DNA of 64,000 nt. It comes from a virus. The notes below the pieces were generated by a model. The model had not been told where the DNA came from. It ran no database searches and was given only the letters and a program-made list of their open reading frames with translations. This document shows positions 3,789 to 51,894 of the stretch, one piece after another. The stretch spans positions 1 to 64,000 of the IMG/VR virus record IMGVR_UViG_3300025070_000019; one strand, 5' to 3'. Both the position numbers and the translations under genes were made by a program. Position 1 is the stretch's first letter. Every line of letters begins with the position of its first letter.

Positions 3789-4856
3789 ATGTATATTAAC
3801 AATAATGTAGATGCTGTAATTGGTTTACAGTATGGTGATGAAGGTAAAGGTAAAATAACAGCTGGTGTTCTTAGTCAAGTAAATTATGATATAACAGCGC
3901 GATTTAATGGTGGACCAAATGCTGGTCATTCTATACATAAAGAGAATGGCGCACATTATGCATTACATCAATTACCATCCTCTGTCGTCTACGGACAAAG
4001 AGGACTTATTGGTCCAGGTTCTGCTGTTGACTTTCACAAACTAAATAAAGAAATTAAAGAAGTAAATGCTATAGAAGATTTAAATGTTAAAAATCTTTTG
4101 CATGTTGCTAGAAACATTTGCCCTATAAAAAATAGACATATTGAGGTTGACAGAAACTTTCATGCAGGAATGCAAGGCAGCACTTCATCTGGTATTGCTC
4201 CTGCTTATAGTGATTTTTACAACAGAACTAATGAAAGCAATAATCAGCAATACTTACCACCTCCATTAACAGTTGACAACATGTTACTTGAAGGTGCACA
4301 AGGTTTTTACCTTGATATTTATCATGGACAATACCCTTATGTAACAAGTAGTCACATATCTCCTGCATTTGCAGCAGCTAGTTTTGGATTTTCACCTAAG
4401 AAAATCCGCAACATTATTGGTGTTGCAAAATGCTATGAAACCAGATCAGGTAAAGATCCTTATTTTGATTACTTAATGGATGATATGGGGGTATTGAAAA
4501 AGCAAAAAGGTTTTAATTTTTCATTTGAAGACATTTATGAAGACATACAAAAAACAGGTCATGAATTTGGTGTAACTACAGGAAGAAAACGTCAGATACG
4601 TTTTCTTGATGTAAGTCGTTTGATTCACAGTATTAATGCTACTGGCACTACTCATGTAGTAATTAACAAATGGGACATTTTAGAAAAACTAGATGCTTGT
4701 TGTTACTTTTATAATACTAATTTATTTGTATGTGATAAAGAATCAATGTTTCCTGAAGTGGAAGCATTGATTTATGCTTATTGTAAAGATGTAAAAAAGG
4801 TATTTTATAGTGCATCTAAAACTAATGATATTGATTGGAAGTGGTTAAATGATTGA
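3789..4856 (+). CDS. purA: adenylosuccinate synthetase (short form)
   Basis: GLQYGDEGKGK, GGPNAGHS, LEGAQG, YPYVTSS, GVTTGRKR, NKWD. Confidence 0.95.
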   Translation: MYINNNVDAVIGLQYGDEGKGKITAGVLSQVNYDITARFNGGPNAGHSIHKENGAHYALHQLPSSVVYGQRGLIGPGSAVDFHKLNKEIKEVNAIEDLNVKNLLHVARNICPIKNRHIEVDRNFHAGMQGSTSSGIAPAYSDFYNRTNESNNQQYLPPPLTVDNMLLEGAQGFYLDIYHGQYPYVTSSHISPAFAAASFGFSPKKIRNIIGVAKCYETRSGKDPYFDYLMDDMGVLKKQKGFNFSFEDIYEDIQKTGHEFGVTTGRKRQIRFLDVSRLIHSINATGTTHVVINKWDILEKLDACCYFYNTNLFVCDKESMFPEVEALIYAYCKDVKKVFYSASKTNDIDWKWLND

Positions 4857-6676: not shown

Positions 6677-6774
6677 CATATAAACTATACATGTTAGATA
6701 TAAAAAGTACCTCCTTATGTGCGAGTGTTGCAAGTTGAGTTACCCCTGCCTTTTCTACTTAACTTGTAACATTT

Positions 6775-6848
6775 GGGCCTTTAGCTCAGTTGGTCAGAGC
6801 ACTCGTCTCATAAACGAGTCGTCCTGGGTTCAAGTCCCAGAAGGCCCA
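6775..6848 (+). tRNA. tRNA with CAT anticodon (tRNA-Ile2-like; Met not excluded), CCA not encoded
   Basis: Acceptor GGGCCTT/AAGGCCC, D arm GCTC/GAGC, anticodon arm CTCGT-CTCATAA-ACGAG, T arm CTGGG-TTCAAGT-CCCAG. Confidence 0.95.
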
Positions 6849-6867
6849 TTATTAAAAAGGATATACT

Positions 6868-14890: not shown

Positions 14891-15757
14891 ATGATAAAAA
14901 GTTACAATTTAGAAACTTCTGAATTGTCATTTCATAAAAAAATATATTCAAATTATCTTAAAATCTTAAATTCTATACACCCAGAATTAAAAGAATATAA
15001 ACCTATTCTTAGTGGTAGTGCAGCAGTAAAATTAGTTATTCACCCTAATGCTGATTTTAATGATTTGGATTTTTATTTCAATTCAGAAGAACATTACAAT
15101 AACACAAAAGAGTTTCTTTTAAAAAACTCTTTTGCATTCAAAACAGAAACAAAAAATTGTATTGTTTTCTCAAATAAAAAAGAAGAAAAAGATATACAAT
15201 TAATTAAAACATTTTATGGAGGTTACAAAAATGTAATTACTTATCACGATTTTCTAAACTGTTCTGTTGCTATTGAAGCCAATATGCTTTATTTAAATTT
15301 AAATGCTTTGAAAGCATGGAAAAATAAAGAACTTGTTTTGCAAAACATACAATGCAATCCTAGTTGTTACCTTAATAGCAAATATAATGATTTAGAAATT
15401 AGCAGTATTTTATCTTACATTGCTAATCTTATGTATCGTATACAAAAATATGAAGATAGGTATGGTCTTAAGTTTAATAATAAATCTATTGAGAGACTAG
15501 CACCATTTAAAACTTATTTAAGGTATTTATCTACAATGCAAACTTTTGATAAAAAAGATTTGCTTTTTTGTAAAGTGGTATATTATGGATCAGCTACTAA
15601 AGATATAGCTTATCAAAAATATATAAATGACTTTATAAAATTATTAAAACTCCCTATAAAATTACGTGTTACATCTGTAAGTGATAATAAACTAACTTAT
15701 AGATGCGAAATAAAAGAACACGATTGGGGTTTTACAAATGAAAATTTATTGTTTTAA
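14891..15757 (+). CDS. Pol-beta superfamily nucleotidyltransferase-like protein
   Basis: LSGSA...NDLDFYF (GS + DxD), IQLI, HDF..C. Confidence 0.65.
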   Translation: MIKSYNLETSELSFHKKIYSNYLKILNSIHPELKEYKPILSGSAAVKLVIHPNADFNDLDFYFNSEEHYNNTKEFLLKNSFAFKTETKNCIVFSNKKEEKDIQLIKTFYGGYKNVITYHDFLNCSVAIEANMLYLNLNALKAWKNKELVLQNIQCNPSCYLNSKYNDLEISSILSYIANLMYRIQKYEDRYGLKFNNKSIERLAPFKTYLRYLSTMQTFDKKDLLFCKVVYYGSATKDIAYQKYINDFIKLLKLPIKLRVTSVSDNKLTYRCEIKEHDWGFTNENLLF

Positions 15758-15959
15758 CAGAGATTCTTGTGCTCATACTAAATATTTACCTTTAGAAGAA
15801 TTGCAAGATTATAATCTCGAAGAACCATTCATTGCATGTCCTGAATGCAATGAATTAGCTGCAATTGTAAGTAATGACTTTATATTAGATGATTCAACTG
15901 AACAGTTATTCATTGCTTATTTAAAGCTATTACAAAAGGAAAAAGAAAAAAATGTTTAA
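15738..15959 (+). CDS. small putative zinc-binding protein
   Basis: C....C ... CPEC. Confidence 0.55.
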   Translation: MKIYCFNRDSCAHTKYLPLEELQDYNLEEPFIACPECNELAAIVSNDFILDDSTEQLFIAYLKLLQKEKEKNV

Positions 15960-18900
15960 ATTTATCCCTGAAGAATTTTTAAAAGATGATTATAGTGAGA
16001 ATATATCTCATTATAATTTTTACAATTTACTTAATAATTATGAAACGATACTAGATACCAATAACTTTAATTTAAAACATACCTGGTCAAAAGAAATATT
16101 AATTTCTTTAACATCAGGATTGAAAACAAGATTAAAAAATCTTAATGAGATTTTTAATAAAGAAAATAATACTTTAGAAAAAGATTTTCTTGGAAAGGAA
16201 ACAGATCTTCAAAGTTCAATTGAAGATTTCAAAGATTTCAATGAAGATAATTCTTTTTTTGAAACTCATTTCAACGATCTATTTTCTTATTTTACAGATG
16301 TTGAAAATAGAAATAATTTACTTTTACATTGTAAACCAGAAGATAAAGACACTCCCTTCTTAGCAAGAAGTAATGTCTCTATTGACGATGATTATTATGT
16401 TAATCTAAATACTGCAGCTAGAAAATCTTGCAGATACTCTCGTTTTTTTAATTTTAAATCAATTCTTAATTCTACAAAAAACTATAAACCTAAGAAGTTA
16501 TATGAAAAAGAACTTAAAAATTACATATTTCAACAATACATAAATAAAACTTTATTTTCAGTTTATGAAGATTCTCAGACAATTTTTAAAAGTTCACTAT
16601 TAGAAAATATAGCAAGAAGTCATTTAGTTGATGAAGAAACATTTGCTCAAAAATTAGATACTGAACATAATTTTTTAAATGCTATGTTTTTGAATTGGTT
16701 CAAACAAAGAGTTGTTAATACAGAATATGGTTATTTTGATTCACTTCAAGAGTATTTTGACTTCTTAGATAGTGATACTAATTGCAAAATATTTAATTAT
16801 GAAAAAAATGATCTCACTCTTACAGTGTACGCTTATCATGGAAAGCAAGAACGTATAAACAAACTTGCAAACTTATTTTCTAGATATGTTCGATTAGAGC
16901 AATATTTAATTTTGTCAAATTTATTAAGTTTTATTAGTTATTCTCAACTTACAACTTCGACTAATAAAACAGTACATTTAAATATGTATAATGAAAACTT
17001 AATTTTTTGTAAAAAAGAACATGATTGTTTAAGAAACAATCAATTGTTTTTCTCTAACTTTCATTCTAGTACTTCTTTTTCATTAAATCCAAATGCTGAT
17101 AGTCCAACTTTTCATTTTCTTCATGAAGATGAAAAGTTTAAAAGAATGAAAAAAACTAATCATTTAAATTCAGATTCTACATACAATAACTACTTAGTTG
17201 TTAAATTTAATTATCATCATATTGAAAATGATCAACATATTTACTCTAGATTTGATAAAAGTTTTTTAGATTTATTTGGCAACAAAATTATTAAAATAGA
17301 TGATGATGTTTTTTGTAATATGTCTTCTAAAGAATATTCATTTAAATTGCCAATTGATAACGATAAAGGAGGAGAAAATAAAGAATTTTTTTTAAATTCT
17401 AACACTTCTCATGTTGTAACGTCTGATACATTTAGCAATGAGCAAAAAACTTATCTTTTTAATTATTTAAAAGAAAACAGTAAAAAGAGAATAAAGGTTA
17501 TTTATTACCCTGGTTTAGATAATAAAAGTAAAAAGAAATATCCAGTCATACAAGGCACTACACTTAAAACTCTATTAACTAAAAAAGGTTTTCTTGTACC
17601 TGTTATGTTACCATTTGTTCATTTAAATGGTAACAATGAAGAACAAAAATCTTGGAATATTTGTTTATTAAACTTTAATGAAAATTCAACTTCTGGTAAA
17701 AACTTTTACAATTTTGCCTATCATATGAATTCTGATTATTTTAGATTAACTTCAAAAGATAGTGTTATCTTTATTATGAGTTTGTTTAAAAAACTTTTTA
17801 GTTATAACAATTTAATTCTCACTGACCCTAAAGAATATGAAAGATTAAAATATTCTAAATTTAATTCTATTTCACAATACAATCAAAATAATGCTGTTTT
17901 ATTTTACGATGCTTTTAAAAAAACATCTATAAGTAATCAAGATAAATTTTTGAAAGCATTTAATGATGCTAAAGGGTTGATAAATCCTACTTCTAAAAAG
18001 GGTGTTTTAGATATTTTCGCTAAAGTTAAATTAGATGAATCTATTAAAATAAATTATGATAAGGTTAAAAAAAGATACGACAAAATAAATTCAAAACTCA
18101 AAGACTTAAAAAAGAGAAAACTAAACTATAAAGAACACGTTGTTGCTTTAGAACATGATGTTGAAAGATATTTAAATGTTATAGAAGAAAAGAAACAGAA
18201 ACTTTTAAATACACAACAATCTTTAGAACAACAAGAACAAGAAATAGAAACTTTTCAAATTCAATATAATTCTATTTCTGAGTTAATGAATCAAAAATCA
18301 CAAGAATATAAAAAAAACTATGAATTAAACTTTAACAAAAAGAATTACGAACTTAATGCTTTCTTAAAAAACATTTCTAAAAACAACATTAATTTATCTT
18401 ACATTTTGTTTTCTATGAAAAATGAACCTAGGAGTTTATTCTTATATTATTCTCACCCTGATTATTTACAAGTCAAGAACTTCAATCTTGAGAGAGATTA
18501 TTATAGTTATTATGATAGTGAATATAATCATAATTATGATGACTTAATTACTGAAATGGATGTAGATAAACAATATAAGTTTGAAGGTGATAACATTTAT
18601 ATTTTGCAATCTTTATTACAAAATAATGATTATTCTATTAAAAAAGTTTGTTTTACTACTATAAAACCTTCTTTAATTAAAATTGATAATAAAGAAAAAT
18701 ATGTAGTTGGTGGTCCATACAGAATCACTGTGAGTACAGCTAAAGTACGTATTGGTCTTTTAAACTTTTCATCTGTTATGGGAGTTGATAATATTGATAC
18801 TCCTAAGAATATCAAAGCTCATCCTCATTCTAATAGTTATGGTTTACATGACATACTTTCTAGAGATGAAGCAACATTGTTAAAACCAACTAACGGTTGT

Positions 18901-19299
18901 TTAGGCGAAGCTAGTACAATGATATATCATGCTTTTAATCAAAATGATTTATCTAGAATTCTATTATCAACTATGATTTGGGTTAAATCTGCTAACTCAG
19001 CAGATGTTTGGGGTAAAACTTACAAATGGTTTCCAGAACCAAATGATGTTGATTTTGAGTTCGATGCTTTAGGTCAATTACCAACGAGTTCTGAAATCAA
19101 TTCTTTTATTGATTCAGAACTAAAAGAAATAGAAGTATCTGAAAATGAAGAACCTTCAGAAGAAGATATTTTTAGAATGGAAACTCAAGAATTAGAACAA
19201 CAAGAACAGGAGCAAATCCAAGAAACACAAAATAACAATCAACAAGATATTGAAACTTTCAATACTGATGACACTTATGTTCGTTATAGAAGAACGTAA
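15952..19299 (+). CDS. large protein with coiled coil and C-terminal prokaryotic E2 (UBC-like) domain
   Basis: GPYRITV...HPH...NGCLG...N.ADVWG near C-terminus; directly upstream of JAB and E1 genes. Confidence 0.65.
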   Translation: MFKFIPEEFLKDDYSENISHYNFYNLLNNYETILDTNNFNLKHTWSKEILISLTSGLKTRLKNLNEIFNKENNTLEKDFLGKETDLQSSIEDFKDFNEDNSFFETHFNDLFSYFTDVENRNNLLLHCKPEDKDTPFLARSNVSIDDDYYVNLNTAARKSCRYSRFFNFKSILNSTKNYKPKKLYEKELKNYIFQQYINKTLFSVYEDSQTIFKSSLLENIARSHLVDEETFAQKLDTEHNFLNAMFLNWFKQRVVNTEYGYFDSLQEYFDFLDSDTNCKIFNYEKNDLTLTVYAYHGKQERINKLANLFSRYVRLEQYLILSNLLSFISYSQLTTSTNKTVHLNMYNENLIFCKKEHDCLRNNQLFFSNFHSSTSFSLNPNADSPTFHFLHEDEKFKRMKKTNHLNSDSTYNNYLVVKFNYHHIENDQHIYSRFDKSFLDLFGNKIIKIDDDVFCNMSSKEYSFKLPIDNDKGGENKEFFLNSNTSHVVTSDTFSNEQKTYLFNYLKENSKKRIKVIYYPGLDNKSKKKYPVIQGTTLKTLLTKKGFLVPVMLPFVHLNGNNEEQKSWNICLLNFNENSTSGKNFYNFAYHMNSDYFRLTSKDSVIFIMSLFKKLFSYNNLILTDPKEYERLKYSKFNSISQYNQNNAVLFYDAFKKTSISNQDKFLKAFNDAKGLINPTSKKGVLDIFAKVKLDESIKINYDKVKKRYDKINSKLKDLKKRKLNYKEHVVALEHDVERYLNVIEEKKQKLLNTQQSLEQQEQEIETFQIQYNSISELMNQKSQEYKKNYELNFNKKNYELNAFLKNISKNNINLSYILFSMKNEPRSLFLYYSHPDYLQVKNFNLERDYYSYYDSEYNHNYDDLITEMDVDKQYKFEGDNIYILQSLLQNNDYSIKKVCFTTIKPSLIKIDNKEKYVVGGPYRITVSTAKVRIGLLNFSSVMGVDNIDTPKNIKAHPHSNSYGLHDILSRDEATLLKPTNGCLGEASTMIYHAFNQNDLSRILLSTMIWVKSANSADVWGKTYKWFPEPNDVDFEFDALGQLPTSSEINSFIDSELKEIEVSENEEPSEEDIFRMETQELEQQEQEQIQETQNNNQQDIETFNTDDTYVRYRRT

Positions 19300-19311
19300 A
19301 AAAAGGAAAAA

Positions 19312-20403
19312 ATGCAATCTATTACAGAATTAAATATTTTAAACAAAAAACCTACCCTTTATATTTCATATGAAGGGTTAGAAGCAATTAAACACATTGT
19401 CTCTATTGCGCCACAAGAAGCACAATGGTTTCATACTATTGAAGTTGAAAACGAAAACACTTTAGTTTTATCAGATCGTATTTACATACCAGAACAAAAT
19501 ACATCTGCTGCTCAAGTTGATTCTACATCTGAAATGTTAATAAATTTTTATAAAGAATTATCTAAAGAATTTAAAACGGAAGAAGTAAATCACATATTAC
19601 AAAATATGGGATGTTGGTGTCATTCACATCATAACATGGGTGTAAGTCCATCAGGACAAGACGTAAAACAATTCACTGAATTTGTTAAAAGTTCTATTGA
19701 ACAAAATCAAAACACTTGGCAAATCATGTTGATCTTTAATAAAAAAGATCAATTTTATTGTCGAGCATATGATCCTAAAACAGGAATTATTTACGAAGGT
19801 TTAGATTTAGAAATTTATCATACTTATGATTTCGATTATATTGACAAAGCAGCTAAAACTAAATTTAAGAAACCTAAACCTAAATTTAATAGCTATGGAT
19901 TTAAATCTAAAAAGAATCAAACTAAAACTACTTACACTAGCCCTAATTGGTTATATCAATCTTCACAAGAATCATTGTTTCCAGCTACTGTTGATAGCAA
20001 TGGTTATGTGTATCCTTCGAAGATCAATGATTATGCAAATGAAGGTTATTATGATGAGTTAGCAGAACATATTTTAAGTGGGTTTAATCAAAAAACTATT
20101 AAGTTTAATCAAAACAATTTAGATGAATTAGTTTTTCAAATGCAAAATCATTTAGATGATAGAGAATTTTGTTTATTTAGCTATATGTTAGCTAATAATA
20201 AAAAAAGTCTAATTAGATCTTGGTCTTTAAATGAAGGTGATTTCAATATTTTACTTTTACAAGATGCTGAAGATAAATTAAGAACTTTTATGAAAAGCAA
20301 AACCAGAAGTAAAAGATCTCTTATCAGTAAAATGTCTACATTTTTAGACATTTTAGATTTAAAAAATGATGAAGCAATTAAAATAATAAAGGAGTTAAAT
20401 TAA
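19312..20403 (+). CDS. JAB/MPN+ (JAMM) metalloprotease
   Basis: N-terminal Glu (PQEAQW), WCHSHHNMGVSPSGQD = HxH-x7-S-xx-D. Confidence 0.88.
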   Translation: MQSITELNILNKKPTLYISYEGLEAIKHIVSIAPQEAQWFHTIEVENENTLVLSDRIYIPEQNTSAAQVDSTSEMLINFYKELSKEFKTEEVNHILQNMGCWCHSHHNMGVSPSGQDVKQFTEFVKSSIEQNQNTWQIMLIFNKKDQFYCRAYDPKTGIIYEGLDLEIYHTYDFDYIDKAAKTKFKKPKPKFNSYGFKSKKNQTKTTYTSPNWLYQSSQESLFPATVDSNGYVYPSKINDYANEGYYDELAEHILSGFNQKTIKFNQNNLDELVFQMQNHLDDREFCLFSYMLANNKKSLIRSWSLNEGDFNILLLQDAEDKLRTFMKSKTRSKRSLISKMSTFLDILDLKNDEAIKIIKELN

Positions 20404-21092
20404 TGACAGTATCATTTTTACGACATAATTCGTTTTTCGGACCTGAAGATACTGATCAAGCTGTACTTAACATAATTGGTGTTGGTGCAACAGGTTCTTG
20501 GGTTGGTTTATTAGCAGCTAAAATGGGTTGGCACCATTTTAGAGTTTGGGATCTAGACATTGTAGAATCTCATAATTTACCTAATCAGATATATGATTCC
20601 AAACATATAGGAATGAAAAAAGTTGATGCGTTTAAAGAAGTATTATTACGTTTTAATCCTCATTGTATTATTGAAACTAATGATTGTTTTTACACCAGTA
20701 ATACTTTTGCTTCTTCTATGGAAGGTGCAGTTTTTATTGCAGTCGATTCACTCAAAGCAAGAAAAGACATCATGACTGGTTTGAAATCAAATCCTATGGT
20801 GGATTTGATTCTTGAAACTAAAATGGGTTTTACACATGCTGAGATGAATTTTATTGACCCATTAGATGTAAATTTTATTGACAACTACTTATCTATGCTT
20901 AAAAATGATGACGAAGTAGAAGAAAGTGCTTGTAATGCACGTATCATTACTACACTTACTAATATTGTTAGTAGCACACTTGTTCATGAACTTTGTAACT
21001 TCTACAAAAAGTACAATTCAGAAGAAGATACTAAAAAATCTTTTAAAACTATTTTTAACATTGAAAACTGTTTATCAGTTTATCATACATAA
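20403..21092 (+). CDS. ThiF/MoeB/E1-like Ubl-activating enzyme
   Basis: IIGVGATGS, D.DIVESHNLPNQ, GMKKVDA, AVDS..AR, candidate catalytic Cys in ESACN. Confidence 0.92.
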   Translation: MTVSFLRHNSFFGPEDTDQAVLNIIGVGATGSWVGLLAAKMGWHHFRVWDLDIVESHNLPNQIYDSKHIGMKKVDAFKEVLLRFNPHCIIETNDCFYTSNTFASSMEGAVFIAVDSLKARKDIMTGLKSNPMVDLILETKMGFTHAEMNFIDPLDVNFIDNYLSMLKNDDEVEESACNARIITTLTNIVSSTLVHELCNFYKKYNSEEDTKKSFKTIFNIENCLSVYHT

Positions 21093-21106
21093 ATCTAAGG
21101 ATTATT

Positions 21107-21295
21107 ATGTCAAAAGAAAAATTACAATCTATTATTAATTTACTAACTTCATCTCTAGAAGATGCAACAAAGTTTGATGCAGGAAATGATGCTGCAGGTA
21201 AACGTATTCGTAAGGATTGTCAAGATGCTAAAGCACTTTTACAAGAACTTAGAGTTGAAGTACAAGAAGAAAGAAATAATCGAAAAGCTAAGTAG
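21107..21295 (+). CDS. histone H1-like Hc1 family protein
   Basis: DATKFDAGNDAAGKRIRK...L.ELR. Confidence 0.8.
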   Translation: MSKEKLQSIINLLTSSLEDATKFDAGNDAAGKRIRKDCQDAKALLQELRVEVQEERNNRKAK

Positions 21296-21321
21296 ATTAT
21301 TTCTAAACAAAAAACATTTTA

Positions 21322-21350
21322 AAAAGGGAGGCATTTAGCCTCCTTTTTTA
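21322..21350 (+). terminator. intrinsic terminator
   Basis: GGAGGC-attta-GCCTCC followed by T tract, preceded by A tract. Confidence 0.8.
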
Positions 21351-21365
21351 TTTTAAGGAGACTAA

Positions 21366-21656
21366 ATGTACATTTACCGTTTAATGCAAGGCGATACTAC
21401 TAAAGACGCTTTTTTAAAAATGTTAGCTAAAGAAAAAGAATGGTCAGAATATACTAATGAACCATCTTTATTTATTAAATATAAACGTTATCAAGTTTTA
21501 GATACTAATAAACATTTTGATAAAATGGAGGATGAAAATGTAATTCATAAATATTTAAAAGAAAAAAATTTATCTAAAAACTGCTGTGGAGTATTTGTAC
21601 TACATGGCAACCAATTTCAATTCCTATGTCCTGATGACATTGAATACGAATATTAA
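21366..21656 (+). CDS. hypothetical protein
   Basis: AAGGAG RBS. Confidence 0.7.
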   Translation: MYIYRLMQGDTTKDAFLKMLAKEKEWSEYTNEPSLFIKYKRYQVLDTNKHFDKMEDENVIHKYLKEKNLSKNCCGVFVLHGNQFQFLCPDDIEYEY

Positions 21657-21731
21657 CTTCGCTTAATTTTAAGCAAAATTTATTAAATAAACTGTATTTA
21701 CATACAAAAACAAAAAGAAGGAAAAAATCCT

Positions 21732-22238
21732 ATGGATATCACTCTTATCGTAATTCCTGGTCCTGGTGTTCGCACTGTAACTCTTAACGAAAATACAACT
21801 GTAGAGCAACTTGTTACGCAAGAAAATTTACATGGTCGTGACATCATTATTGATGGTGTTGGTGTTTCTCCTGCTAACTATCAAACAACTAACATTACTG
21901 CTAATAGCGAAGTATTTGCTACTGGTAGTGTGAAAGGGAATATGTCTAATTTAACTTTAATCGTAATTCCTGGTCCTGGTGTTCGCACTCTTAGTATCAC
22001 TAATAGTATGACTGTAGAACAACTTATTACGCAAGAAAATTTACATGGTCGTGATATTATTATTGACGGTGTTGGTATCTCACCAACTAATTATCAAACA
22101 ACTACATTAACTAGTGGTAGCGAAGTATTTGCTACTGGTAGTGTAAAAGGGAATGGTGATCGTCCTGCAAACGGTCCATCACAAACAGGTCGTCCTAGTG
22201 GTGGTGGACGCGGTAACAATCCACCTCGTGGAAAGTAA
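21732..22238 (+). CDS. tandem ubiquitin-like (beta-grasp) precursor: 2 x ~70 aa units + 27 aa tail
   Basis: Units 21732-21941 and 21942-22154 both end SEVFATGSVKGN; beta-beta-alpha-beta-beta pattern; near E1/JAB/E2. Confidence 0.8.
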   Translation: MDITLIVIPGPGVRTVTLNENTTVEQLVTQENLHGRDIIIDGVGVSPANYQTTNITANSEVFATGSVKGNMSNLTLIVIPGPGVRTLSITNSMTVEQLITQENLHGRDIIIDGVGISPTNYQTTTLTSGSEVFATGSVKGNGDRPANGPSQTGRPSGGGRGNNPPRGK

Positions 22239-22395: not shown

Positions 22396-23298
22396 ATGAA
22401 AGATATATTCGAACCAGTAAAACTAACTGTTTCAGATTCATTTATTGATAACTTGTTTATTGAAAAAACAAACGAATTAAAAAGTATACATAAAAAGTTC
22501 CACTATGAAAGTGGGACTTTTTTAGTTTTACAAAGTGAAAAGAAAAAGAACAAGAAAGCATTAGCTTATGTAACTGTAGATGAATTAAAATTAATTGACC
22601 CTAAATTAGCATATGGTTCTATAAGTCCTAAAGACTCTAAACAACTTATGTTTGCCGCTGCTATGCAAGAAATAGATTTTAGTGTAATTGTTTGTTTTGG
22701 TGCTGCTGGAACAGGCAAAACTACATTAGCTATAGCAAAAGCAATACAAGATTATTTTACACATAAAAAGAAAATCTATTTAACAAAACCTACACATATG
22801 GTACAATCACATACGAATCAGGTGTTTGGACCTGTACCTGGCGATGTAGATGAAAAATATACACCATATATAAAGAGTTTTGAAATAGTATTGAAAAAGA
22901 TTTTAGGAAACGAAAGTAAACACTATTTAGATATGATGAAAAAACGAAAAGATCTTGAATTTGTACCTGTTGAATATACAAGAGGATGCACGTATGAAGA
23001 CTGTACTTTTATTATAGATGAAGTACAAAATATGACATGGCACGAATTAAAAACTACTATGAGTAGAATAGGTGAAAATAGTCAATTGTTACTATTAGGT
23101 GATTTAAATCAAATTGACGCAGATTTTGGTTTAAAAGATTCAGGAATATATCAATTAATAACTTCTCAAACTTTTGACGAATCAGATATTACTTCTACTA
23201 TAAAGCTTACTAAGCAATATAGAGGACCTATACCTGATTTAGTCTATCATGTAGATAAAGAACAGAAAGGAACTCATGAATTATCCAACGAGTTTTAA
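22396..23298 (+). CDS. phoH: PhoH family ATPase
   Basis: GAAGTGKT, GPVPGD..EK..PY, RG.T, IIDEVQN, SRIGE, GD..QID. Confidence 0.93.
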   Translation: MKDIFEPVKLTVSDSFIDNLFIEKTNELKSIHKKFHYESGTFLVLQSEKKKNKKALAYVTVDELKLIDPKLAYGSISPKDSKQLMFAAAMQEIDFSVIVCFGAAGTGKTTLAIAKAIQDYFTHKKKIYLTKPTHMVQSHTNQVFGPVPGDVDEKYTPYIKSFEIVLKKILGNESKHYLDMMKKRKDLEFVPVEYTRGCTYEDCTFIIDEVQNMTWHELKTTMSRIGENSQLLLLGDLNQIDADFGLKDSGIYQLITSQTFDESDITSTIKLTKQYRGPIPDLVYHVDKEQKGTHELSNEF

Positions 23299-23701
23299 TG
23301 TTTATAAAAAAACTGCAGCGGCTCAATTCACATTATTGATCCCACGCAGAGATGAAAATGGTCGTATACAAAAGCCAGGTGCCATTCTTTTAGAGATGGC
23401 ACCTTCTAAAGGTGACAAAGCATATGATTGGAATTCTAAAATTTATTTTGCGTTTGGTTTAAATGACTTAACGCAATTTTTTGACGACCCATACTCTGAT
23501 AAATGGGGTAGCTTTTTTCACAAAAATGGTGACACTAATAAAAAATTACAAATTAGTCATGGTGAAGGTCGTTATGAAGGAACATATACAATGAATCTTT
23601 ATTCTGGAGATCAACGTATTATGATTTCTTTAACAGGTGGTGAGTTTACTGTCTTAAGTAAATTATTTGCTAGTGCATTACCTAAGTTAATAGGTTGGTA
23701 A
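23276..23701 (+). CDS. Whirly-like ssDNA-binding protein
   Basis: VYKKTAA, G.ILLEMAP..G...YDW..K..F, FFH, EFTVL..LF..ALP.LIGW. Confidence 0.75.
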   Translation: MNYPTSFNVYKKTAAAQFTLLIPRRDENGRIQKPGAILLEMAPSKGDKAYDWNSKIYFAFGLNDLTQFFDDPYSDKWGSFFHKNGDTNKKLQISHGEGRYEGTYTMNLYSGDQRIMISLTGGEFTVLSKLFASALPKLIGW

Positions 23702-33143: not shown

Positions 33144-33410
33144 ATGAAAGCTTTAATAGTTGATACACCATATACAGAATCATTTAAAGGCAAATTCGAT
33201 AAAATACAAGATAAAGTTTATGATATTTTGCATTTGCTACCATATAATCAAGATGATGTAGAATTTTTATCTTATTTGGCTGATAACTTCTTAGAAGGTT
33301 TAGAAGATTATTATAAAGAGAATGTTTTTAAGTGTAAATGTTGTGAAAGGTTAGCTGTTAAAGGTAACATATGTTCTGACAACTATGAAAAGGATTGTAA
33401 AAGACAATGA
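33144..33410 (+). CDS. hypothetical protein with C-terminal Cys cluster
   Basis: AGGAG RBS. Confidence 0.55.
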   Translation: MKALIVDTPYTESFKGKFDKIQDKVYDILHLLPYNQDDVEFLSYLADNFLEGLEDYYKENVFKCKCCERLAVKGNICSDNYEKDCKRQ

Positions 33411-34675
33411 GTGGAGAGTATGTACACTTACATGTACATACCGAGTATAGTTTATTAGATGGTATAAATAAGGTTAATAGATTACCACATATTATAAAAG
33501 AGATGAATCAACCTGCATTAGCTATGACAGATCATGGCAATGTATCTGGTTCATTTAAGTTTTATAAAGAGTGTAATAAAGCAGGCGTTAAACCTATTAT
33601 AGGTATGGAAGCTTATTATACTGTAAATGATAGAACTGCTAGAGAAAAAGATGAATTAGAAAAATCCTATTATCATCTTATTTTGCTGGCTCAAAATAAT
33701 ATTGGTCTAAAAAATCTTATAAAACTATCTTCTTACGCTTATACAGAAGGTATGTACAGGAAACCACGTATTGATGATGCATTAATTGCTCAATACTCTG
33801 ATGGTATAATTGCAACGACTACTTGTTTAGGTGGTCGTGCATCTCAATTAATTATTAATGGCCGAGAAAAAGAAGCTGAAAATTTAATACATCATCATAA
33901 AGCAATGTTTAAAAATAGATTTTTAGTTGAATTACAATTACATAAAGACAAAGATCAACAACTAGTTAATAATGTATTACAAAGAATTGCATTAGATAAT
34001 GACTTACCTATGGTTCTTACAAATGACTGCCACTACACGCATGAGCATGATAAGTGTCATCATGAGGCAGCTTTATGTTTGCAAACAAAAACAACTCTTA
34101 GTAATGAGAAACGTTTTACTTTTGGTGAAATAGATGTACATGTAGCACATCATGACTGGATGTGGAAACATGCAGAAGCTCAAGGAATGCCTTATGATGT
34201 TATTAGTAATAGTGTTGCTGTTGCTGATTTAATTGATAGCGATTCATATTTTATGGATAGAATGAATCGTTATCCTAAGTATCAAGAGCTACCTGAAGAT
34301 ATGACTTCTATTGATTATCTGAATGTAGAAGCTCAACATGGATTGTATAGGAGGTTTAAAGAGTTGCCTCCAGAAGATTATAGAAAACGTTTAGCCTATG
34401 AGCTGAAAGTAATTAAAAGAATGGGTTTTGCTGATTATCTTTTGATTGTTGCACAATTTATGAATGGCGCAAAAGAAAGAGGTGTTTTGCATGGCCCCGG
34501 TCGTGGCTCTGCTGCAGGTTCTCTTATTGCTTGGGCACTTGGTATTACTGAAGTGGATCCAATTAAATATGGATTAGTTTTCGAACGTTTTTTAAATGAA
34601 GGTCGTGGTGCTACACCACTTATATTCAATAAACAAATGGCTTTAATAGCTGATCAAAATGGTTTACCATTTTAA
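33407..34675 (+). CDS. dnaE: DNA polymerase III alpha, fragment 1 (PHP domain + start of palm)
   Basis: HLHVHTEYSLLDG, TDHG, KPIIGMEAY, NDCHY, GPGRGSAAGS, FERFLN. Confidence 0.93.
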   Translation: MSGEYVHLHVHTEYSLLDGINKVNRLPHIIKEMNQPALAMTDHGNVSGSFKFYKECNKAGVKPIIGMEAYYTVNDRTAREKDELEKSYYHLILLAQNNIGLKNLIKLSSYAYTEGMYRKPRIDDALIAQYSDGIIATTTCLGGRASQLIINGREKEAENLIHHHKAMFKNRFLVELQLHKDKDQQLVNNVLQRIALDNDLPMVLTNDCHYTHEHDKCHHEAALCLQTKTTLSNEKRFTFGEIDVHVAHHDWMWKHAEAQGMPYDVISNSVAVADLIDSDSYFMDRMNRYPKYQELPEDMTSIDYLNVEAQHGLYRRFKELPPEDYRKRLAYELKVIKRMGFADYLLIVAQFMNGAKERGVLHGPGRGSAAGSLIAWALGITEVDPIKYGLVFERFLNEGRGATPLIFNKQMALIADQNGLPF

Positions 34676-35498: not shown

Positions 35499-37091
35499 AT
35501 GTATGACAGTAGAAAAAATAATTTAAAACTCTTAGATGAGAATATAATAGATGAAAGATACGATCAAGTCGATCCCGATTATTTAGCTTTTGAAGTTAAA
35601 ATGGTATCAGATGAAGATTTAGAAAGAATTTTCTGGTTGTTAACTGAAAAAGTTAAATTTGAATCGAATCCATACAATTCTATCTTGCTTTATATTACAG
35701 GGATTACAGATGACTTTAATTTTGATAAAGCTAGATCTGAAATGGTTGGTGGTGCTCCACCTGACATTGACATTGACCATGATGCTTTAGACAGAGAAGA
35801 AGCGATTCAATGGTGTGTTGATTACTGGGGTAGAGAAAATGTAGCTAATATTATTACTCATGGTACTTTTAAACCTAAAAGTTTAGCGCGGTCTTTTTAT
35901 CGTATTACTGAAGGCAATAATGAAGACCTTAACGAGTTACTTAAAAAGATACCTATGCCTGTATATGGTAAAGAAGCTACATTAGATGAAATACTTGAAG
36001 TTGCACCTGAAATAAAAGAAGAAATACGATATGCAAACTTTTTGGAGTTTGCAGATCGTATTGAAGGTATGGTTTCTACATTTGGTATTCATGCTGCTGG
36101 TATTATTATATCTGACACTGAAGTTAATGATACTGTTCCTGTATGGAAAAATAGCAAGGCAGATCGTATTACTCAATATGATAAAGATGAATGTGAAGAA
36201 CTTGGTTTGATTAAGTTTGACTTCTTAGGTATAGACACATTGTCTATTATTAAAGAATGCCGTCATTTAATTAAACATCATACTTTATTAGATATAGAAC
36301 CATATGCAATTGAAGATGGAGATGAAAGAACTTATCAGACACTTTGTAGTGGCTTGCTTACTGGCGTCTTTCAAATGGAAACATCTGGTACTGCTAAAAA
36401 ACTAATACTTAGTATTCGTCCTAAATCAATAGAAGATTTATCTGCTATATCAGCTTTGAATCGTCCAGGTCCGTTACAAGCAGGACTAGATAAACAATAT
36501 ATAGAGAACAAATATAAGGGCTCTCCTCCAAAAGATTTACCTAGTAATGTTGCTGAAGTATTACAAGCTAGTTACTGGACTTTAGTTTATCAAGAACAAG
36601 TAATGGATATATGTTCTAAAATTGCAGGATTCACTCCTAAACAAGCTGATGATATTCGTCGTGCTATGGGTAAAAAGAAACATGAAGTATTAGAAAAATA
36701 TAAAGAACAATTCATTGAAGGTTGTCAATCAATTGGTGGTCTTGCCAAAGATTATTCAAGTAATCTTTGGGATGATCTTGTCGGTTTTGCAGACTATTGT
36801 TTATTAGGTAATACTAAGATTCAAACTGTAGATGGTACTTTCACAATAAAAGACATAGTTGATAACTTTATTTCAGCAGAAGTATTTAGTTATAGTTTTA
36901 AAGATAAAAATTTTATTAAACAAAAAGTATCTCAATGGTATAATCGTGGTGTCAAGCCAGTATATCGTTACACGTTAGAAGATGGTACTTATGTCGATTG
37001 TACAGAAGATCATAAGTTTTTAACAATAAATGATGATATGCTTGAAATTGATGCTATATTTGATAAAAATATAAAATTAAAGACTAAATAA
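35499..37091 (+). CDS. dnaE: DNA polymerase III alpha, fragment 2 (palm/thumb/fingers) fused to N-terminal split-intein half
   Basis: PDIDID, GIHAAG, KFDFLG, GVFQME, ALNRPGP, YQEQVM, IRRAMGKK, FADY|CL. Confidence 0.95.
   Translation: MYDSRKNNLKLLDENIIDERYDQVDPDYLAFEVKMVSDEDLERIFWLLTEKVKFESNPYNSILLYITGITDDFNFDKARSEMVGGAPPDIDIDHDALDREEAIQWCVDYWGRENVANIITHGTFKPKSLARSFYRITEGNNEDLNELLKKIPMPVYGKEATLDEILEVAPEIKEEIRYANFLEFADRIEGMVSTFGIHAAGIIISDTEVNDTVPVWKNSKADRITQYDKDECEELGLIKFDFLGIDTLSIIKECRHLIKHHTLLDIEPYAIEDGDERTYQTLCSGLLTGVFQMETSGTAKKLILSIRPKSIEDLSAISALNRPGPLQAGLDKQYIENKYKGSPPKDLPSNVAEVLQASYWTLVYQEQVMDICSKIAGFTPKQADDIRRAMGKKKHEVLEKYKEQFIEGCQSIGGLAKDYSSNLWDDLVGFADYCLLGNTKIQTVDGTFTIKDIVDNFISAEVFSYSFKDKNFIKQKVSQWYNRGVKPVYRYTLEDGTYVDCTEDHKFLTINDDMLEIDAIFDKNIKLKTK
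36798..37088 (+). mobile_element. split intein N-half (IntN, 97 aa)
   Basis: CLLGNTKIQT block A; QWYNRG..PVYRYTLEDG...CTEDHKFLT block B; ends at stop codon. Confidence 0.93.
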
Positions 37092-50597: not shown

Positions 50598-50627
50598 AAA
50601 GCGTCTTAATTGACGCTTTTGTTTTTT
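50598..50627 (+). terminator. intrinsic terminator after structural cassette
   Basis: AAAGCGTC-ttaatt-GACGCTTT followed by T-rich run. Confidence 0.7.
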
Positions 50628-50640
50628 GAGGTATGTAAAA

Positions 50641-50754
50641 ATGAAAATTGTAAAAAAAGAATTTCTTGGTAACCAAGAAGTTTACGATATCGGTGTGTCT
50701 TCTAACGAAGATGCACATAACTTTTTGCTAGATAATAACTTGATAGCAAGTAAT
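50641..50754 (+). mobile_element. split intein C-half (IntC, 38 aa)
   Basis: MKIVKKEFLGNQEVYDIGV...HNFLLDNNLIASN followed by +1 Cys. Confidence 0.93.
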
Positions 50755-51894
50755 TGTTTTAACAAAGCGCATTCAGTTAGCTATTCTATGTTAACTTATA
50801 TTAGTGCTTATCTAAAAACTCACTACCCTGTTTACTTTTTTACTGCTTTGATGTCTACTCGATCTAAAACTTTACAACCTAAATCATGGGCTGTTAAAGC
50901 TCCTGAATATGTATTGGAAGCAAAAAAATTTAATATAGATATAAATACTCCTAGTGTTAATAAATCAGGTTATGAATTTACTATCTTTAATAATGAAGTA
51001 TACTTTGGGTTAAATGCTATAAGAGACGTAGGTAAAACAGCAGCTAAAAGTATTATCAAAGCGAGAAAGAATGTCCCATTTAAAGACATTCTTGATTTTG
51101 TCGAACGTGTTAACTTGCAAAAAGTAAATACTAAAACTTTTGAAGCATTAGCCTATGCAGGTGCTTTTGATAGAATGGGTTACTCTCGTAAAGAGCTTAT
51201 AGAAAAAACTTCTGAAATATATTCCTATATAAGAGATTTAGAAGATTATCGACAACGTAAAATAGATGCAGCTGCTAGACGAGAAAAAAATGCTCGCAAT
51301 ACACCTTTAATAGAAAGACGTAACTTTTTACGTAAAGAAATAAAAAAAATAAACAATCGTATCAATAAGGATAAAGCTAAAGAAGAAGACTTTGAGAATT
51401 TGACTGTGTATGAAAATGAACTAGAACCTTTAGAAGACTTAGGACTTAAGAAACTAGTTGATCTTAAAGAAAAAGAAAGACCTGTTTTTCCTGAGTTAAA
51501 ACGCAATAGTTCTGTTGAGTTAGATCTTCAGGATATAACTCAACAAGCACACTACATTGGCTGTTACTTAGGTGGACACCCTTTGCAATTTGTACAAGTA
51601 AGTGGTGTTTCTCAAATTATTTCATTAGATATCGGTGAAATTGATACAATAGCTGGTGTAATATTAGGCATTCGTGAGATTACTACTCGTAAAGGCAAAA
51701 AAATGGCTGTTATAGATGTAAACGACTCAACGAATACTACTGAAATAGTTTGTTTTCCTTCAACATGGTCTAAGATAAATAATATGAATTTAAAAACTGG
51801 TGATATAGTTAAAGCTAAAATCAAAGTAGAAGAGACAGATCCAGACTATAAAATGATATTATTCAGCTTAACTACTGTTGATCAAAATCAATAA
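50641..51894 (+). CDS. dnaE: split-intein C-half fused to DNA polymerase III alpha fragment 3 (HhH + OB)
   Basis: ATG at 50641 after GAGGT; ASN|CFNKAHS.SY, YLKTHYP, PSVNKS, FGLNAIRDVG, AGAFD, YL.GHPL, T.KGKKMA. Confidence 0.94.
   Translation: MKIVKKEFLGNQEVYDIGVSSNEDAHNFLLDNNLIASNCFNKAHSVSYSMLTYISAYLKTHYPVYFFTALMSTRSKTLQPKSWAVKAPEYVLEAKKFNIDINTPSVNKSGYEFTIFNNEVYFGLNAIRDVGKTAAKSIIKARKNVPFKDILDFVERVNLQKVNTKTFEALAYAGAFDRMGYSRKELIEKTSEIYSYIRDLEDYRQRKIDAAARREKNARNTPLIERRNFLRKEIKKINNRINKDKAKEEDFENLTVYENELEPLEDLGLKKLVDLKEKERPVFPELKRNSSVELDLQDITQQAHYIGCYLGGHPLQFVQVSGVSQIISLDIGEIDTIAGVILGIREITTRKGKKMAVIDVNDSTNTTEIVCFPSTWSKINNMNLKTGDIVKAKIKVEETDPDYKMILFSLTTVDQNQ

What the first reader, a model, noticed from the sequence alone, without database searches (positions are those of the whole stretch)
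15952..22238. Phage-encoded ubiquitin-like conjugation system: E2-like, JAB protease, E1 and poly-Ubl in one locus
Seen: consecutive co-oriented genes encode a protein with a C-terminal HPH...GCLG segment (15952), an intact JAMM motif HSHHNMGVSPSGQD (19312), a ThiF/E1 with GxGxxG, DxVExxNL and a crossover-loop Cys (20403) and, two short genes later, a tandem beta-grasp protein ending in KG-N (21732). No thiamine, molybdopterin or tRNA-thiolation genes occur in the window. Established: E1+E2+JAB+Ubl operons occur in bacteria (Bil antiphage systems conjugate Ubl to phage structural proteins; CBASS Cap2/Cap3 use E1-E2 and JAB). Inference: here the virus carries the whole pathway, possibly to tag host proteins, modify its own virion or replisome, exclude competing phages, or counter host Bil/CBASS through a decoy Ubl and deconjugase.
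Basis: partly seen in the sequence, partly recalled or inferred. Interest (0 to 1): 0.93.

Follow-up and report, generated by a model that had tools for sequence, protein, structure and literature searches.

The report
Phage-encoded ubiquitin-like tagging gene module
An uncultured ~160-kb marine phage carries its own ubiquitin-style kit (tandem tag precursor, activating enzyme, trimming protease and a giant probable carrier enzyme), machinery so far characterised only in cells, mostly as anti-phage defence; what it tags is unknown.

Summary
On a viral contig, co-oriented and mostly tightly packed genes encode:
- a 1115-aa protein with a conserved C-terminal His/Cys domain (HPH...CLGE);
- a JAMM peptidase with an intact motif;
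- a minimal ThiF-type E1 with an invariant Cys;
- an Hc1-like protein;
- a two-unit beta-grasp protein.

The E1 (Pfam E = 3e-19), the JAMM motif (8 of 10 relatives hit Prok-JAB) and the ubiquitin-like fold (Foldseek probability 1.0 to linear di-ubiquitin and ISG15) are solid. The "E2" is not proven. Its model is confident (pLDDT 90), but it resembles UBC enzymes only faintly (VIA Z 2.0-2.5), although 12 of the 20 chains reaching Z >= 2 are UBC enzymes.

The module is conserved in 12 divergent loci of one phage clade (complete genomes 158-162 kb). It is essentially absent from 185,579 cellular genomes.

All 230 tag units examined end in Lys-Gly-Asn. 23 of 120 genes stop right after that Asn and none stops after Gly. 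Units are lysine deserts (1.5% Lys against 9.4% in neighbouring proteins). No sulfur-pathway partner genes were found.

Best reading: a virus-owned ubiquitin-like conjugation pathway with polyubiquitin-style precursor genes. The target, and whether the mature end is Gly or Asn, are open.

This scan noted the same family earlier on other DNA. I found no publication describing it.

The parts
14891..15757 (+). 288-aa protein (phrog_4400). It always lies upstream of the module. Invariant S41-G42...D58-x-D60...D120 resembles a Pol-beta nucleotidyltransferase signature. Membership of the module is uncertain.
   Evidence: no PDB or Pfam support
15738..15959 (+). 73-aa zinc-ribbon-like protein. It overlaps both neighbouring genes and is conserved in position.
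   Evidence: (weak Zn_ribbon_8)
15952..19299 (+). Giant 1115-aa protein. It has a variable N-terminal and coiled-coil part, a conserved C-terminal His/Cys domain, an acidic linker and a short aromatic C-terminal peptide.
18613..19095 (+). Candidate E2-like (Ubl carrier) domain, residues 888-1048. HPH957-959 is at 18820-18828 and Cys983 at 18898-18900. Invariant motifs: GGPY, HPH, CLGE, SANSxDxWG.
   Evidence: 291 clusters; pLDDT 90.3; UBC chains dominate the weak VIA list
19312..20403 (+). JAMM/MPN+ metallopeptidase (N-terminal ~190 aa) with a variable C-terminal part. The JAMM motif is at 19621-19662.
20403..21092 (+). Minimal E1-like adenylating enzyme (ThiF family, 229 aa). Invariant Cys177 is at 20931-20933. 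There are no Zn-binding CxxC pairs and no second adenylation domain.
21107..21295 (+). 62-aa Hc1 (histone H1-like) protein. It lies between the E1 and the Ubl genes in all loci of the clade that include this stretch.
   Evidence: (Pfam Hc1 8.4e-15)
21366..21656 (+). 96-aa protein of unknown function. It is found next to Ubl genes in a subset of relatives (L008/L009, L014).
21732..21941 (+). Ubl unit 1 (residues 1-70), beta-grasp, ends VKGN.
21942..22154 (+). Ubl unit 2 (residues 71-141), beta-grasp, ends VKGN.
22155..22238 (+). 27-aa Gly/Arg/Pro-rich tail (conserved core GPSxTGRPSGGGRGNNPP) plus the stop codon. It is predicted to be disordered and is a presumed released peptide or pro-sequence.
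   Evidence: 26 of 120 relatives carry it

Best explanation
A phage-encoded ubiquitin-like (Ubl) protein-conjugation pathway with polyubiquitin-style precursor genes.

Proposed steps (all inferred; none was tested biochemically):
1. The tandem precursor, and in relatives the single, triple, quadruple or cargo-fused precursors, is cut by the JAMM peptidase at each invariant Lys-Gly|Asn site. This releases ~70-aa beta-grasp tags plus the tail peptide or cargo.
2. The minimal homodimer-type E1 adenylates the exposed C-terminal carboxylate and takes the tag onto its invariant Cys177.
3. The tag passes to Cys983 of the C-terminal His/Cys domain of the 1115-aa protein. That protein acts as a giant E2, or an E2/E3 hybrid whose variable N-terminal part selects targets.
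4. The tag is attached to lysines of phage or host proteins. The JAMM enzyme may also reverse this.

Shown by analysis here: the identity of the E1, the JAMM motif and the Ubl fold; the repeat and site architecture; the lysine depletion; the conservation; the viral setting.
For: - E1: Pfam ThiF 3.3e-19. The family profile matches PaaA, TcdA, UBA5, MoeB/ThiF, Cap2, MccB and BubCD. Nucleotide-binding motifs and Cys177 are invariant.
- JAMM: exact E...HxHx7Sx2D, invariant. 8 of 10 relatives hit Prok-JAB, best 9e-6. PADLOC JAB models hit to 4e-5.
- Ubl: AlphaFold gives beta-beta-alpha-beta-beta-beta twice. Foldseek's best hits are linear di-ubiquitin and ISG15, E ~5e-7, probability 1.0.
- Precursor logic: 230 of 230 units are followed by Asn. 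Forms with 1 to 4 units and cargo fusions occur.
- Lysine desert: one Lys per unit in 220 of 230 units, 1.5% against 9.4% in neighbours. This fits selection against self-conjugation in a Lys-directed system.
- Carrier candidate: the domain folds confidently (pLDDT 90.3). Only 20 of 48,161 chains reach Z >= 2, and 12 of these are UBC E2s plus 2 UEV-type chains, aligned across the whole domain. There is an Atlas lead to Prok-E2_D. The order beta-meander, HxH, Cys, helices matches UBC (inference).
- Linkage: gaps between the 288-aa gene and the Hc1 gene are -20, -8, 12, -1 and 14 nt. The module is kept in 12 divergent loci.
- Distant phages: a similar order (X protein with HxH...C, then JAB, then E1) occurs in Crassvirales. 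JAB homology there has hhalign E = 6e-5. There are weak structural hits to crAss-like proteins of 373-435 aa.
- Sulfur-pathway partners are absent.
- Precedent: the Bil JAB pre-processes its Ubl to expose the C-terminal Gly (PMC10557695).
Against: - No single measure establishes a UBC fold. Foldseek against the PDB finds nothing (best E = 0.59). The VIA scores are very low. There is no Pfam UQ_con or Prok-E2_D signal in five clade genomes.
- The E1 is nearest by sequence to non-conjugating ThiF-like enzymes (PaaA, TcdA).
- The invariant Asn, and genes that stop right after it, are not expected for a simple Gly-terminated tag.
- Gene order is collinear across the whole region in this clade, so synteny within the clade is weak evidence of functional linkage.
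- No target, no expression data and no biochemistry are available.
Confidence: 0.62

Rival explanations
1. E2-independent Ubl system, as in archaeal SAMP/UbaA/HvJAMM1 or Thermus TtuB/TtuC. The E1 alone activates the tag and conjugation, or another transfer, proceeds without a carrier enzyme. The 1115-aa protein is then a target, a scaffold or an unrelated Cys/His enzyme that merely sits next door.
For: The E1 is a minimal single-domain ThiF-type enzyme, like the E1s of E2-less systems. The UBC fold is not demonstrated. Gene order in the clade is collinear over many unrelated genes.
Against: The His/Cys domain is strongly conserved, with an invariant Cys, in 291 clusters. It lies next to the JAB and E1 genes, with a 12-nt gap to the JAB gene. 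An analogous HxH...C protein precedes JAB and E1 in Crassvirales and in a Xanthomonas jumbo phage. The weak structural matches that exist are mostly UBC enzymes.
Confidence: 0.17
2. Asn-terminated tag with MccB-like chemistry. The mature unit ends in Lys-Gly-Asn, with cleavage after the Asn or none needed for genes that stop there. The E1 adenylates the Asn carboxylate. This could cyclise to a succinimide and give either a nucleotidylated C-terminus or an unusual linkage to targets.
For: Asn follows Gly in 230 of 230 units. 23 of 120 proteins end exactly in KGN and none ends in KG. ThiF-like MccB adenylates a C-terminal Asn, which forms a succinimide (PMC12596934). MccB and PaaA are among the E1 profile's PDB matches.
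Against: The E1 lacks the N-terminal peptide-clamp/RRE domain of MccB and PaaA (229 aa; the ThiF match spans residues 23-217). All characterised JAMM enzymes cut after Gly, and Bil and Bub Ubls are processed to a terminal Gly. A one-residue cap on the last unit is also seen in eukaryotic polyubiquitin genes (own knowledge). The lysine desert fits ordinary Lys-directed conjugation.
Confidence: 0.13
3. Sulfur-carrier or auxiliary metabolic module (ThiS/MoaD-ThiF type). The Ubl is thiocarboxylated for thiamine, molybdopterin, cysteine or tRNA/DNA thiolation, as the database labels suggest ('sulfur carrier protein ThiS', 'thiamine biosynthesis protein').
For: Source annotations of relatives use these labels. 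There are weak Pfam ThiS hits on a few family members. The E1 belongs to the ThiF family.
Against: ThiG, MoaE, rhodanese and PP-loop thiolase genes are absent from the contig. The last two are also absent from two complete genomes, where ThiF itself is found. The tag has no Gly-Gly terminus. Tandem precursors with repeated sites, cargo fusions, an obligatory JAMM peptidase and lysine depletion have no role in sulfur transfer. Fold matches are to ubiquitin and ISG15.
Confidence: 0.05

Closest known systems
Bil operons (BilA Ubl, BilB E2, BilC JAB, BilD E1; types I/II; class 6d of Iyer et al. 2006), bacterial anti-phage systems (PMC10557695, PMC1779556)
   Same: The component set is the same: Ubl, JAB, E1 and a Cys-bearing carrier candidate. 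The Ubls are ubiquitin/ISG15-like and can have tandem beta-grasp domains. The JAB pre-processes the Ubl.
   Different: - This module is encoded by a phage, not by a host defence island.
- The E1 is a 229-aa single adenylation domain, not IAD-AAD-CYS.
- The carrier candidate is the C-terminus of a 727-1115-aa protein with no sequence match to BilB.
- Every tandem unit has its own processing site, so several tags come from one gene.
- The site is Lys-Gly-Asn.
- PADLOC gives only generic JAB and E1 Rossmann-region hits.
Eukaryotic polyubiquitin and ubiquitin-fusion genes (UBI4/UBB/UBC type; ubiquitin-ribosomal protein fusions)
   Same: Units are arranged head to tail, each with the same C-terminal motif. 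Some genes have a one-residue cap after the last unit. Other genes fuse units to an unrelated passenger peptide or domain. The fold matches linear di-ubiquitin.
   Different: There is no sequence similarity. Junctions carry an invariant Asn plus a 2-4-residue linker, not a direct Gly-Met junction. The processing enzyme is presumed to be a JAMM peptidase encoded alongside. The system is viral and prokaryotic.
Type II CBASS Cap2 (E2-E1 fusion) / Cap3 (JAB) acting on a CD-NTase
   Same: E1 and JAB homologs are present; PADLOC's 'E1-E2' and 'JAB' models are the best defence-library hits. A protein with a nucleotidyltransferase-like motif lies upstream.
   Different: E1 and the E2 candidate are separate proteins. 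A dedicated Ubl exists. The NTase assignment rests on a motif only. No effector gene was recognised.
Bub operons (BubA Ubl, BubB E2, BubCD JAB-E1) (PMC11601596)
   Same: A peptidase cleaves a precursor after a conserved Gly to release a Ubl from a fused partner. The E1 is a homodimer-type enzyme. BubCD appears among the E1 profile's PDB matches.
   Different: Bub works through Tyr and Ser oxyesters and lacks catalytic Cys residues. Here both the E1 and the carrier candidate keep an invariant Cys. JAB and E1 are separate genes. The system is viral.
Giant E2/E3 hybrid enzymes of eukaryotes (UBE2O, BIRC6) - analogy only, from own knowledge
   Same: A small catalytic carrier domain sits near the C-terminus of a very large protein whose remainder would choose substrates.
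   Different: There is no detectable homology. The UBC fold is unproven here.

Membership tests
E1-like superfamily (ThiF/MoeB/UBA, PF00899) | Rossmann-type adenylation domain with GxGxxG and conserved Asp/Arg/Lys nucleotide and Mg contacts | tested here: met
   Pfam ThiF 69.4 bits against a cut-off of 28.1. G26/G28/G31, D50, D52, K73, D115 and R120 are invariant. The profile matches 36 PDB E1-like sequences.
E1-like superfamily (ThiF/MoeB/UBA, PF00899) | Cysteine in the crossover loop able to take the Ubl (thioester-forming E1s) | tested here: inconclusive
   Cys177 is invariant in ESACNARIITTLT. By the colinear offset it lies near ThiF Cys184 / MoeB Cys187 (inference). No structure of this E1 was predicted.
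ThiF/MoeB proper (sulfur-carrier activating enzymes) | C-terminal Zn-binding Cys pairs, a Gly-Gly-terminated carrier, and partner enzymes (ThiG, MoaE, rhodanese) | tested here: not met
   The 229-aa protein has no CxxC pairs. The carrier ends in KGN. Partner genes are absent.
JAMM/MPN+ metallopeptidases | E...H-x-H-x7-S-x2-D zinc and catalytic motif | tested here: met
   E36, H104, H106, S114 and D117 are invariant in 10 relatives. 8 of 10 hit Prok-JAB, best 9e-6. The window's own protein is below the Pfam cut-off (15.6 against 25 bits).
Ubiquitin-like beta-grasp modifiers | Beta-grasp fold of about 70-76 residues | tested here: met
   Model with unit cores at pLDDT 85-95. Foldseek hits linear di-ubiquitin and ISG15 at E 5e-7 to 1e-5, probability 1.0.
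Ubiquitin-like beta-grasp modifiers | Flexible C-terminal tail ending in Gly (exposed by a protease) that is adenylated by the E1 | tested here: inconclusive
   An invariant Gly is present, but it is always followed by an invariant Asn. 23 of 120 genes stop after the Asn and none stops after the Gly. The cleavage position cannot be tested with these tools.
UBC/E2 fold (UQ_con, Prok-E2 families) | UBC fold: beta-meander, then an HPN-type loop and the catalytic Cys, then helices | tested here: inconclusive
   The confident model has that order of elements, with HPH70-72 and Cys96. By VIA, 12 UBC and 2 UEV chains are among the only 20 chains with Z >= 2, but Z is just 2.0-2.5, rmsd 4-5 A, 89-107 residues aligned. 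Foldseek against the PDB gives no hit. The Atlas lead to Prok-E2_D scores 0.88.
UBC/E2 fold (UQ_con, Prok-E2 families) | Sequence match to a curated E2 model | tested here: not met
   No Pfam family at E <= 1 for 10 members. UQ_con and Prok-E2_D give no match at E <= 10 in five clade genomes. There is no PDB sequence match.
Bil (BilABCD) | [quoted passage not shown] | tested here: not met
   The E1 is a single 229-aa domain. The locus is in a virus record and in complete phage genomes. Only one look-alike locus occurs in 185,579 cellular genomes, and it is a phage-sized contig.
Polyubiquitin-type precursor genes | Head-to-tail units, each carrying its own C-terminal processing motif, with a cap or passenger after the last unit | tested here: met
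   Genes with 1, 2 or 3 units are counted, and one with 4 units is seen. All 230 counted junctions or ends read KGN. Tails are 1-5 residues, a conserved 19-30-aa peptide, or a 95-aa domain. Cleavage itself was not shown.

The most novel reading that the evidence does not exclude
Tailed phages own an ancient ubiquitin-like conjugation system built from undescribed families, shared in diverged form by this marine clade, Crassvirales and some jumbo phages. Its tag is made from polyubiquitin-like genes. The tag's reactive end is Asn rather than Gly, activated by a ThiF-like E1 through MccB-type chemistry. That would be a new conjugation chemistry and the first virus-of-bacteria Ubl pathway acting on host or viral proteins.
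Probability: 0.12. Interest if true: 0.95.

Novelty: new variant of a known kind. Interest (0 to 1): 0.78.

Why it matters
Ubiquitin-like conjugation in prokaryotes has been characterised as a host weapon against phages (Bil, type II CBASS, probably Bub). A complete-looking pathway owned by the virus would reverse that picture. Phages could tag host or their own proteins during infection.

The system would also give a tractable minimal model: a 229-aa E1 and 70-aa tags. It shows the polyubiquitin and ubiquitin-fusion gene layout outside eukaryotes.

The module is widespread in marine metagenomes (more than 175 Ubl relatives and 291 clusters of the carrier-candidate domain). A diverged JAB-E1 core with an analogous His/Cys protein also sits in crAss-like gut phages, where it is annotated only as 'metalloprotease' and 'thiamine biosynthesis protein ThiF'.

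The invariant Lys-Gly-Asn end poses a concrete chemical question that a few in vitro assays could answer.

Tried and rejected
- Synteny was obtained through the search for related loci instead.
- **Single-sequence searches:** The search for related loci with the E1 or the Ubl alone found nothing. The GenBank phage collection holds no near DNA match and no tblastn match to the Ubl or to the conserved 180-aa neighbour.
- **PDB sequence searches:** profiles of the carrier candidate, the JAB, the Ubl and the 288-aa protein gave nothing useful.
- **Complex prediction:** E1 x2 with the candidate E2 domain gave no verdict (score 0.01 against a mark of 0.32). This is no evidence either way.
- **Fold searches of the E2-like model:** Foldseek against the PDB found no match. 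The pdb_via second look found one chain at Z 2.2.
- **Pfam E2 models:** UQ_con and Prok-E2_D run over five clade genomes gave no match.
- **crAss 'X' family:** hhalign of the carrier-candidate profile against it put the HxH and Cys motifs in register but was not significant (E = 0.013, probability 3%).
- **Cargo domains:** the cargo domain of relatives and the 96-aa protein match no Pfam family and do not match each other.
- **Frameshift lead:** I considered a frameshift joining the Ubl to the 96-aa-like gene in L009 and rejected it. That gene has its own ATG overlapping the Ubl stop.
- **Promoter/terminator scan:** uninformative, with fewer promoter-like sites than in shuffles.
- **Sequencing runs:** no RNA holder was listed, so expression could not be addressed.
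- **Literature:** searches found no paper on a phage-encoded Ubl/E1/JAB/E2 pathway. PDB entries 9egb/9egc could not be traced to a paper.

Full report
**What is there.** The window is the first 64 kb of a 96.6-kb IMG/VR virus record, about 59% complete by CheckV, with ~29% G+C.

The region 14.9-22.2 kb holds co-oriented genes. From the first to the Hc1-like gene they are tightly packed, with gaps of -20, -8, 12, -1 and 14 nt. The remaining gaps are 70 and 75 nt, and 157 nt to the next gene, PhoH. In order, the genes are:
- a 288-aa protein;
- a 73-aa zinc-ribbon-like protein;
- a 1115-aa protein;
- a 363-aa protein;
- a 229-aa protein;
- a 62-aa Hc1-like protein;
- a 96-aa protein;
- a 168-aa repeat protein.

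The surroundings are phage replication and nucleotide-metabolism genes: PhoH, a Whirly-like protein, RNR, a split DNA polymerase and a primase-helicase. The other arm of the contig carries a baseplate-wedge homolog among large novel ORFs. The DNA occurs in marine and seawater metagenomes.

**The solid parts.**

*E1.* The 229-aa protein is an E1-like adenylating enzyme (Pfam ThiF 3.3e-19). In ten relatives the GxGxxGS loop, the Asp/Asn/Gln/Lys/Arg nucleotide contacts and one Cys (Cys177, ESACNARIITTLT) are invariant. A family profile matches the E1-like superfamily broadly:

| PDB match | E-value |
|---|---|
| PaaA | 3e-13 |
| unnamed ThiF-type protein 9egb | 5e-13 |
| TcdA | 1e-10 |
| UBA5 | 2e-9 |
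| MoeB/ThiF | 2e-7 |
| Cap2 | 4e-7 |
| MccB | 1e-6 |
| BubCD | 7e-5 |

Sequence therefore places it in the superfamily but not in a particular branch. It is a minimal E1, with no second adenylation domain and no Zn-binding Cys pairs.

*JAMM peptidase.* The 363-aa protein has the exact JAMM signature (Glu36; His104-x-His106-x7-Ser114-x2-Asp117), invariant in the family. The window's copy is below Pfam's threshold. However, 8 of 10 relatives hit Prok-JAB (best 9e-6), and PADLOC JAB models hit at 4e-5.

*Ubl.* The 168-aa protein folds as two beta-grasp units with a disordered tail. Its best structural matches are linear di-ubiquitin and ISG15 (E ~5e-7, probability 1.0).

**The uncertain part.** The last ~160 structured residues of the 1115-aa protein (888-1048) form a well-conserved domain with invariant GGPY, HPH, CLGE and SANSxDxWG motifs. 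It is present in 291 clusters at 50% identity, almost always at the C-terminus of 650-1150-aa proteins.

It has no Pfam, PDB-sequence or Foldseek-PDB match. Pfam UQ_con and Prok-E2_D find nothing in five genomes of the clade.

The AlphaFold model is confident (pLDDT 90.3, pTM 0.83). Its order of elements is that of UBC enzymes: a beta-meander, a loop with HPH, the Cys, then helices.

A search of 48,161 representative chains that does not depend on Foldseek found only 20 with Z >= 2. Twelve of them are UBC E2 enzymes and two are UEV-type relatives, aligned over 89-107 residues spanning the domain. But Z is only 2.0-2.5. The ESM Atlas places the domain next to small viral proteins; one such cluster has Prok-E2_D on 11% of its members (score 0.88, a lead only).

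I read this as faint but specific support for a very diverged UBC-like carrier domain, not as proof. A complex prediction with the E1 gave no verdict.

**Conservation and range.** Using a Ubl alignment I fetched 12 IMG/VR loci. Eleven carry the same series:
- 288-aa gene;
- Zn-ribbon;
- giant protein (727-1097 aa, with only the C-terminal part and some middle stretches conserved);
- JAB (39-53% identity);
- E1 (54-60% identity);
- Hc1-like;
- one to three Ubl genes;
- PhoH, Whirly and onwards to RNR.

Two of the genomes are complete, at 158.5 kb and at 161.8 kb with terminal repeats.

Among 185,579 bacterial and archaeal species genomes, only one locus matched the Ubl. It is a 158-kb contig in a MAG with the same synteny, most simply a binned phage genome. 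The carrier-candidate domain matched none. GenBank phages hold no close relative.

Because the whole region is collinear in this clade, synteny within the clade is only weak evidence of functional linkage. Better evidence comes from distant phages.
- In Crassvirales, the ThiF-annotated E1 (25-28% identical) is preceded by a 'metalloprotease domain' protein with an intact JAMM motif. It is homologous to the window's JAB (hhalign E = 6e-5).
- Before that lies a 370-445-aa protein with invariant YMHSH...F-x-T-P-C-x-G.
- Profile-profile alignment puts these motifs in register with HPH...CLGE but is not significant.
- Foldseek against viral models gives weak hits of the carrier-domain model to crAss-like proteins of 373 and 435 aa (probability 0.72 and 0.35).
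- A Xanthomonas jumbo phage has, upstream of its ThiF, an 892-aa protein reading IHPH...SLCLGS...NDLYVRAWAKTYG.

**The tag genes.** More than 175 relatives exist. The 120 listed relatives have 1, 2 or 3 units. One locus encodes 4 units plus a 95-aa domain. Other features:
- All 230 units counted end FAT[G/A]SVKG followed by Asn.
- 23 of 120 proteins stop exactly after that Asn, and none stops after the Gly.
- After the last KGN come 1-5 residues, a conserved 19-30-aa Gly/Arg/Pro peptide (core GPSxTGRPSGGGRGNNPP; 26 of 120, including the window), or a 95-aa domain of unknown family.
- Each unit contains a single Lys, the one before the Gly, in 220 of 230 units. That is 1.5% Lys against 9.4% in neighbouring proteins.

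This is the layout of polyubiquitin and ubiquitin-fusion genes. The lysine depletion fits selection against self-modification in a Lys-directed conjugation system.

The sulfur-carrier reading suggested by database labels is disfavoured. ThiG, MoaE, rhodanese and PP-loop thiolation enzymes are absent from the contig. PP-loop and rhodanese genes are also absent from two complete genomes in which ThiF is readily found.

**Mechanism proposed.**
1. The JAMM peptidase cuts at each KG|N, by analogy with BilC and BubCD, which expose a C-terminal Gly.
2. The E1 adenylates the tag and takes it on Cys177.
3. The tag is transferred to Cys983 of the giant protein, whose variable N-terminal part would pick targets.
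4. The tag is attached to lysines.

All these steps are inferred. The alternative end, Asn, is a real possibility. The Asn is invariant and is often the encoded terminus. A ThiF-like enzyme, MccB, is known to adenylate a C-terminal Asn that then forms a succinimide (PMC12596934). Against this, the E1 lacks MccB's peptide-clamp domain, and known JAMM enzymes cut after Gly.

The target and the biological purpose (counter-defence, host takeover or modification of phage proteins) are unknown. The constant Hc1-like neighbour and the replication-gene setting are the only hints, and they are weak.

**Comparison and novelty.** The closest known systems are Bil, then type II CBASS and Bub. This module is not a member of any of them, because E1 architecture, carrier family, site and genomic owner all differ. 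I file it as a new variant of a known kind (E1/JAB/Ubl conjugation).

Literature searches found no description of a phage-encoded pathway of this sort. Iyer et al. 2006 describe only the lambda-type TAPI/TAPK tail-assembly Ubl-JAB pair in phages.

Earlier notes of this scan describe the same family on other genomes and reached similar readings. I used them as leads and re-tested the points I cite.

Noticed in passing
window 33407-34675, 35499-37091 and 50626-51894 (+): One DNA polymerase family (phrog_405, 1190 positions) is matched in three separate ORFs covering profile positions 43-443, 442-790 and 771-1061. The third piece lies about 13.5 kb downstream of the second. The polymerase is therefore split or interrupted.
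   Followed up: no
window 3789-4856 (+): A 355-aa protein matches phrog_1211, the adenylosuccinate-synthetase-like (PurZ-type) family, at 3.8e-56. This is a possible hint of 2-aminoadenine (Z-base) DNA or of purine salvage.
   Followed up: no
window 14891-15757 (+): The 288-aa protein is conserved upstream of the module. Its invariant S41-G42...D58-x-D60...D120 looks like a Pol-beta nucleotidyltransferase signature. That would recall the CD-NTase partner of Cap2/Cap3, but no PDB or Pfam match supports it.
   Followed up: partly
window 21107-21295 and 23276-23701 (+): A chlamydial-type histone H1-like protein (Pfam Hc1 8.4e-15) and a Whirly-family ssDNA-binding-like protein (Pfam 3.4e-12) are encoded by the phage. 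Both are conserved across the clade.
   Followed up: partly
window 19096-19299 (+), C-terminus of the 1115-aa protein: After the His/Cys domain comes an acidic low-complexity linker. The protein ends in a short conserved aromatic peptide (consensus roughly Y-V/T-P/R-Y) in all relatives. This may be a docking tail.
   Followed up: no
L011:9989-11140 and L012:10010-10729: Relatives fuse four or two Ubl units to a ~95-aa domain ending ...GFVFYGWAAC. The domain has no family match and is a candidate passenger protein.
   Followed up: partly
L001, L022-L025 (Crassvirales); L002 (Xanthomonas phage PhiXhv-15): crAss-like phages keep the order X (370-445 aa, YMHSH...TPCxG), JAB ('metalloprotease'), ThiF, Y (190-270 aa), between the primase and UDG genes. 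The Xanthomonas jumbo phage has an 892-aa protein with HPH...CLGS followed by a degenerate JAMM-like segment (GSHQNMGASGS) and a Cys-rich tail. No Ubl was identified in either.
   Followed up: partly
L019 (CAYOWH010000001.1, 158,217 bases): A contig filed in a 'Bacteriovoracaceae' MAG has the clade's genome length and the same synteny. It is probably a phage genome binned with a bacterium. At best this is a weak host hint.
   Followed up: partly
window 6774-6849 (+): A single tRNA-Met (CAT) gene.
   Followed up: no
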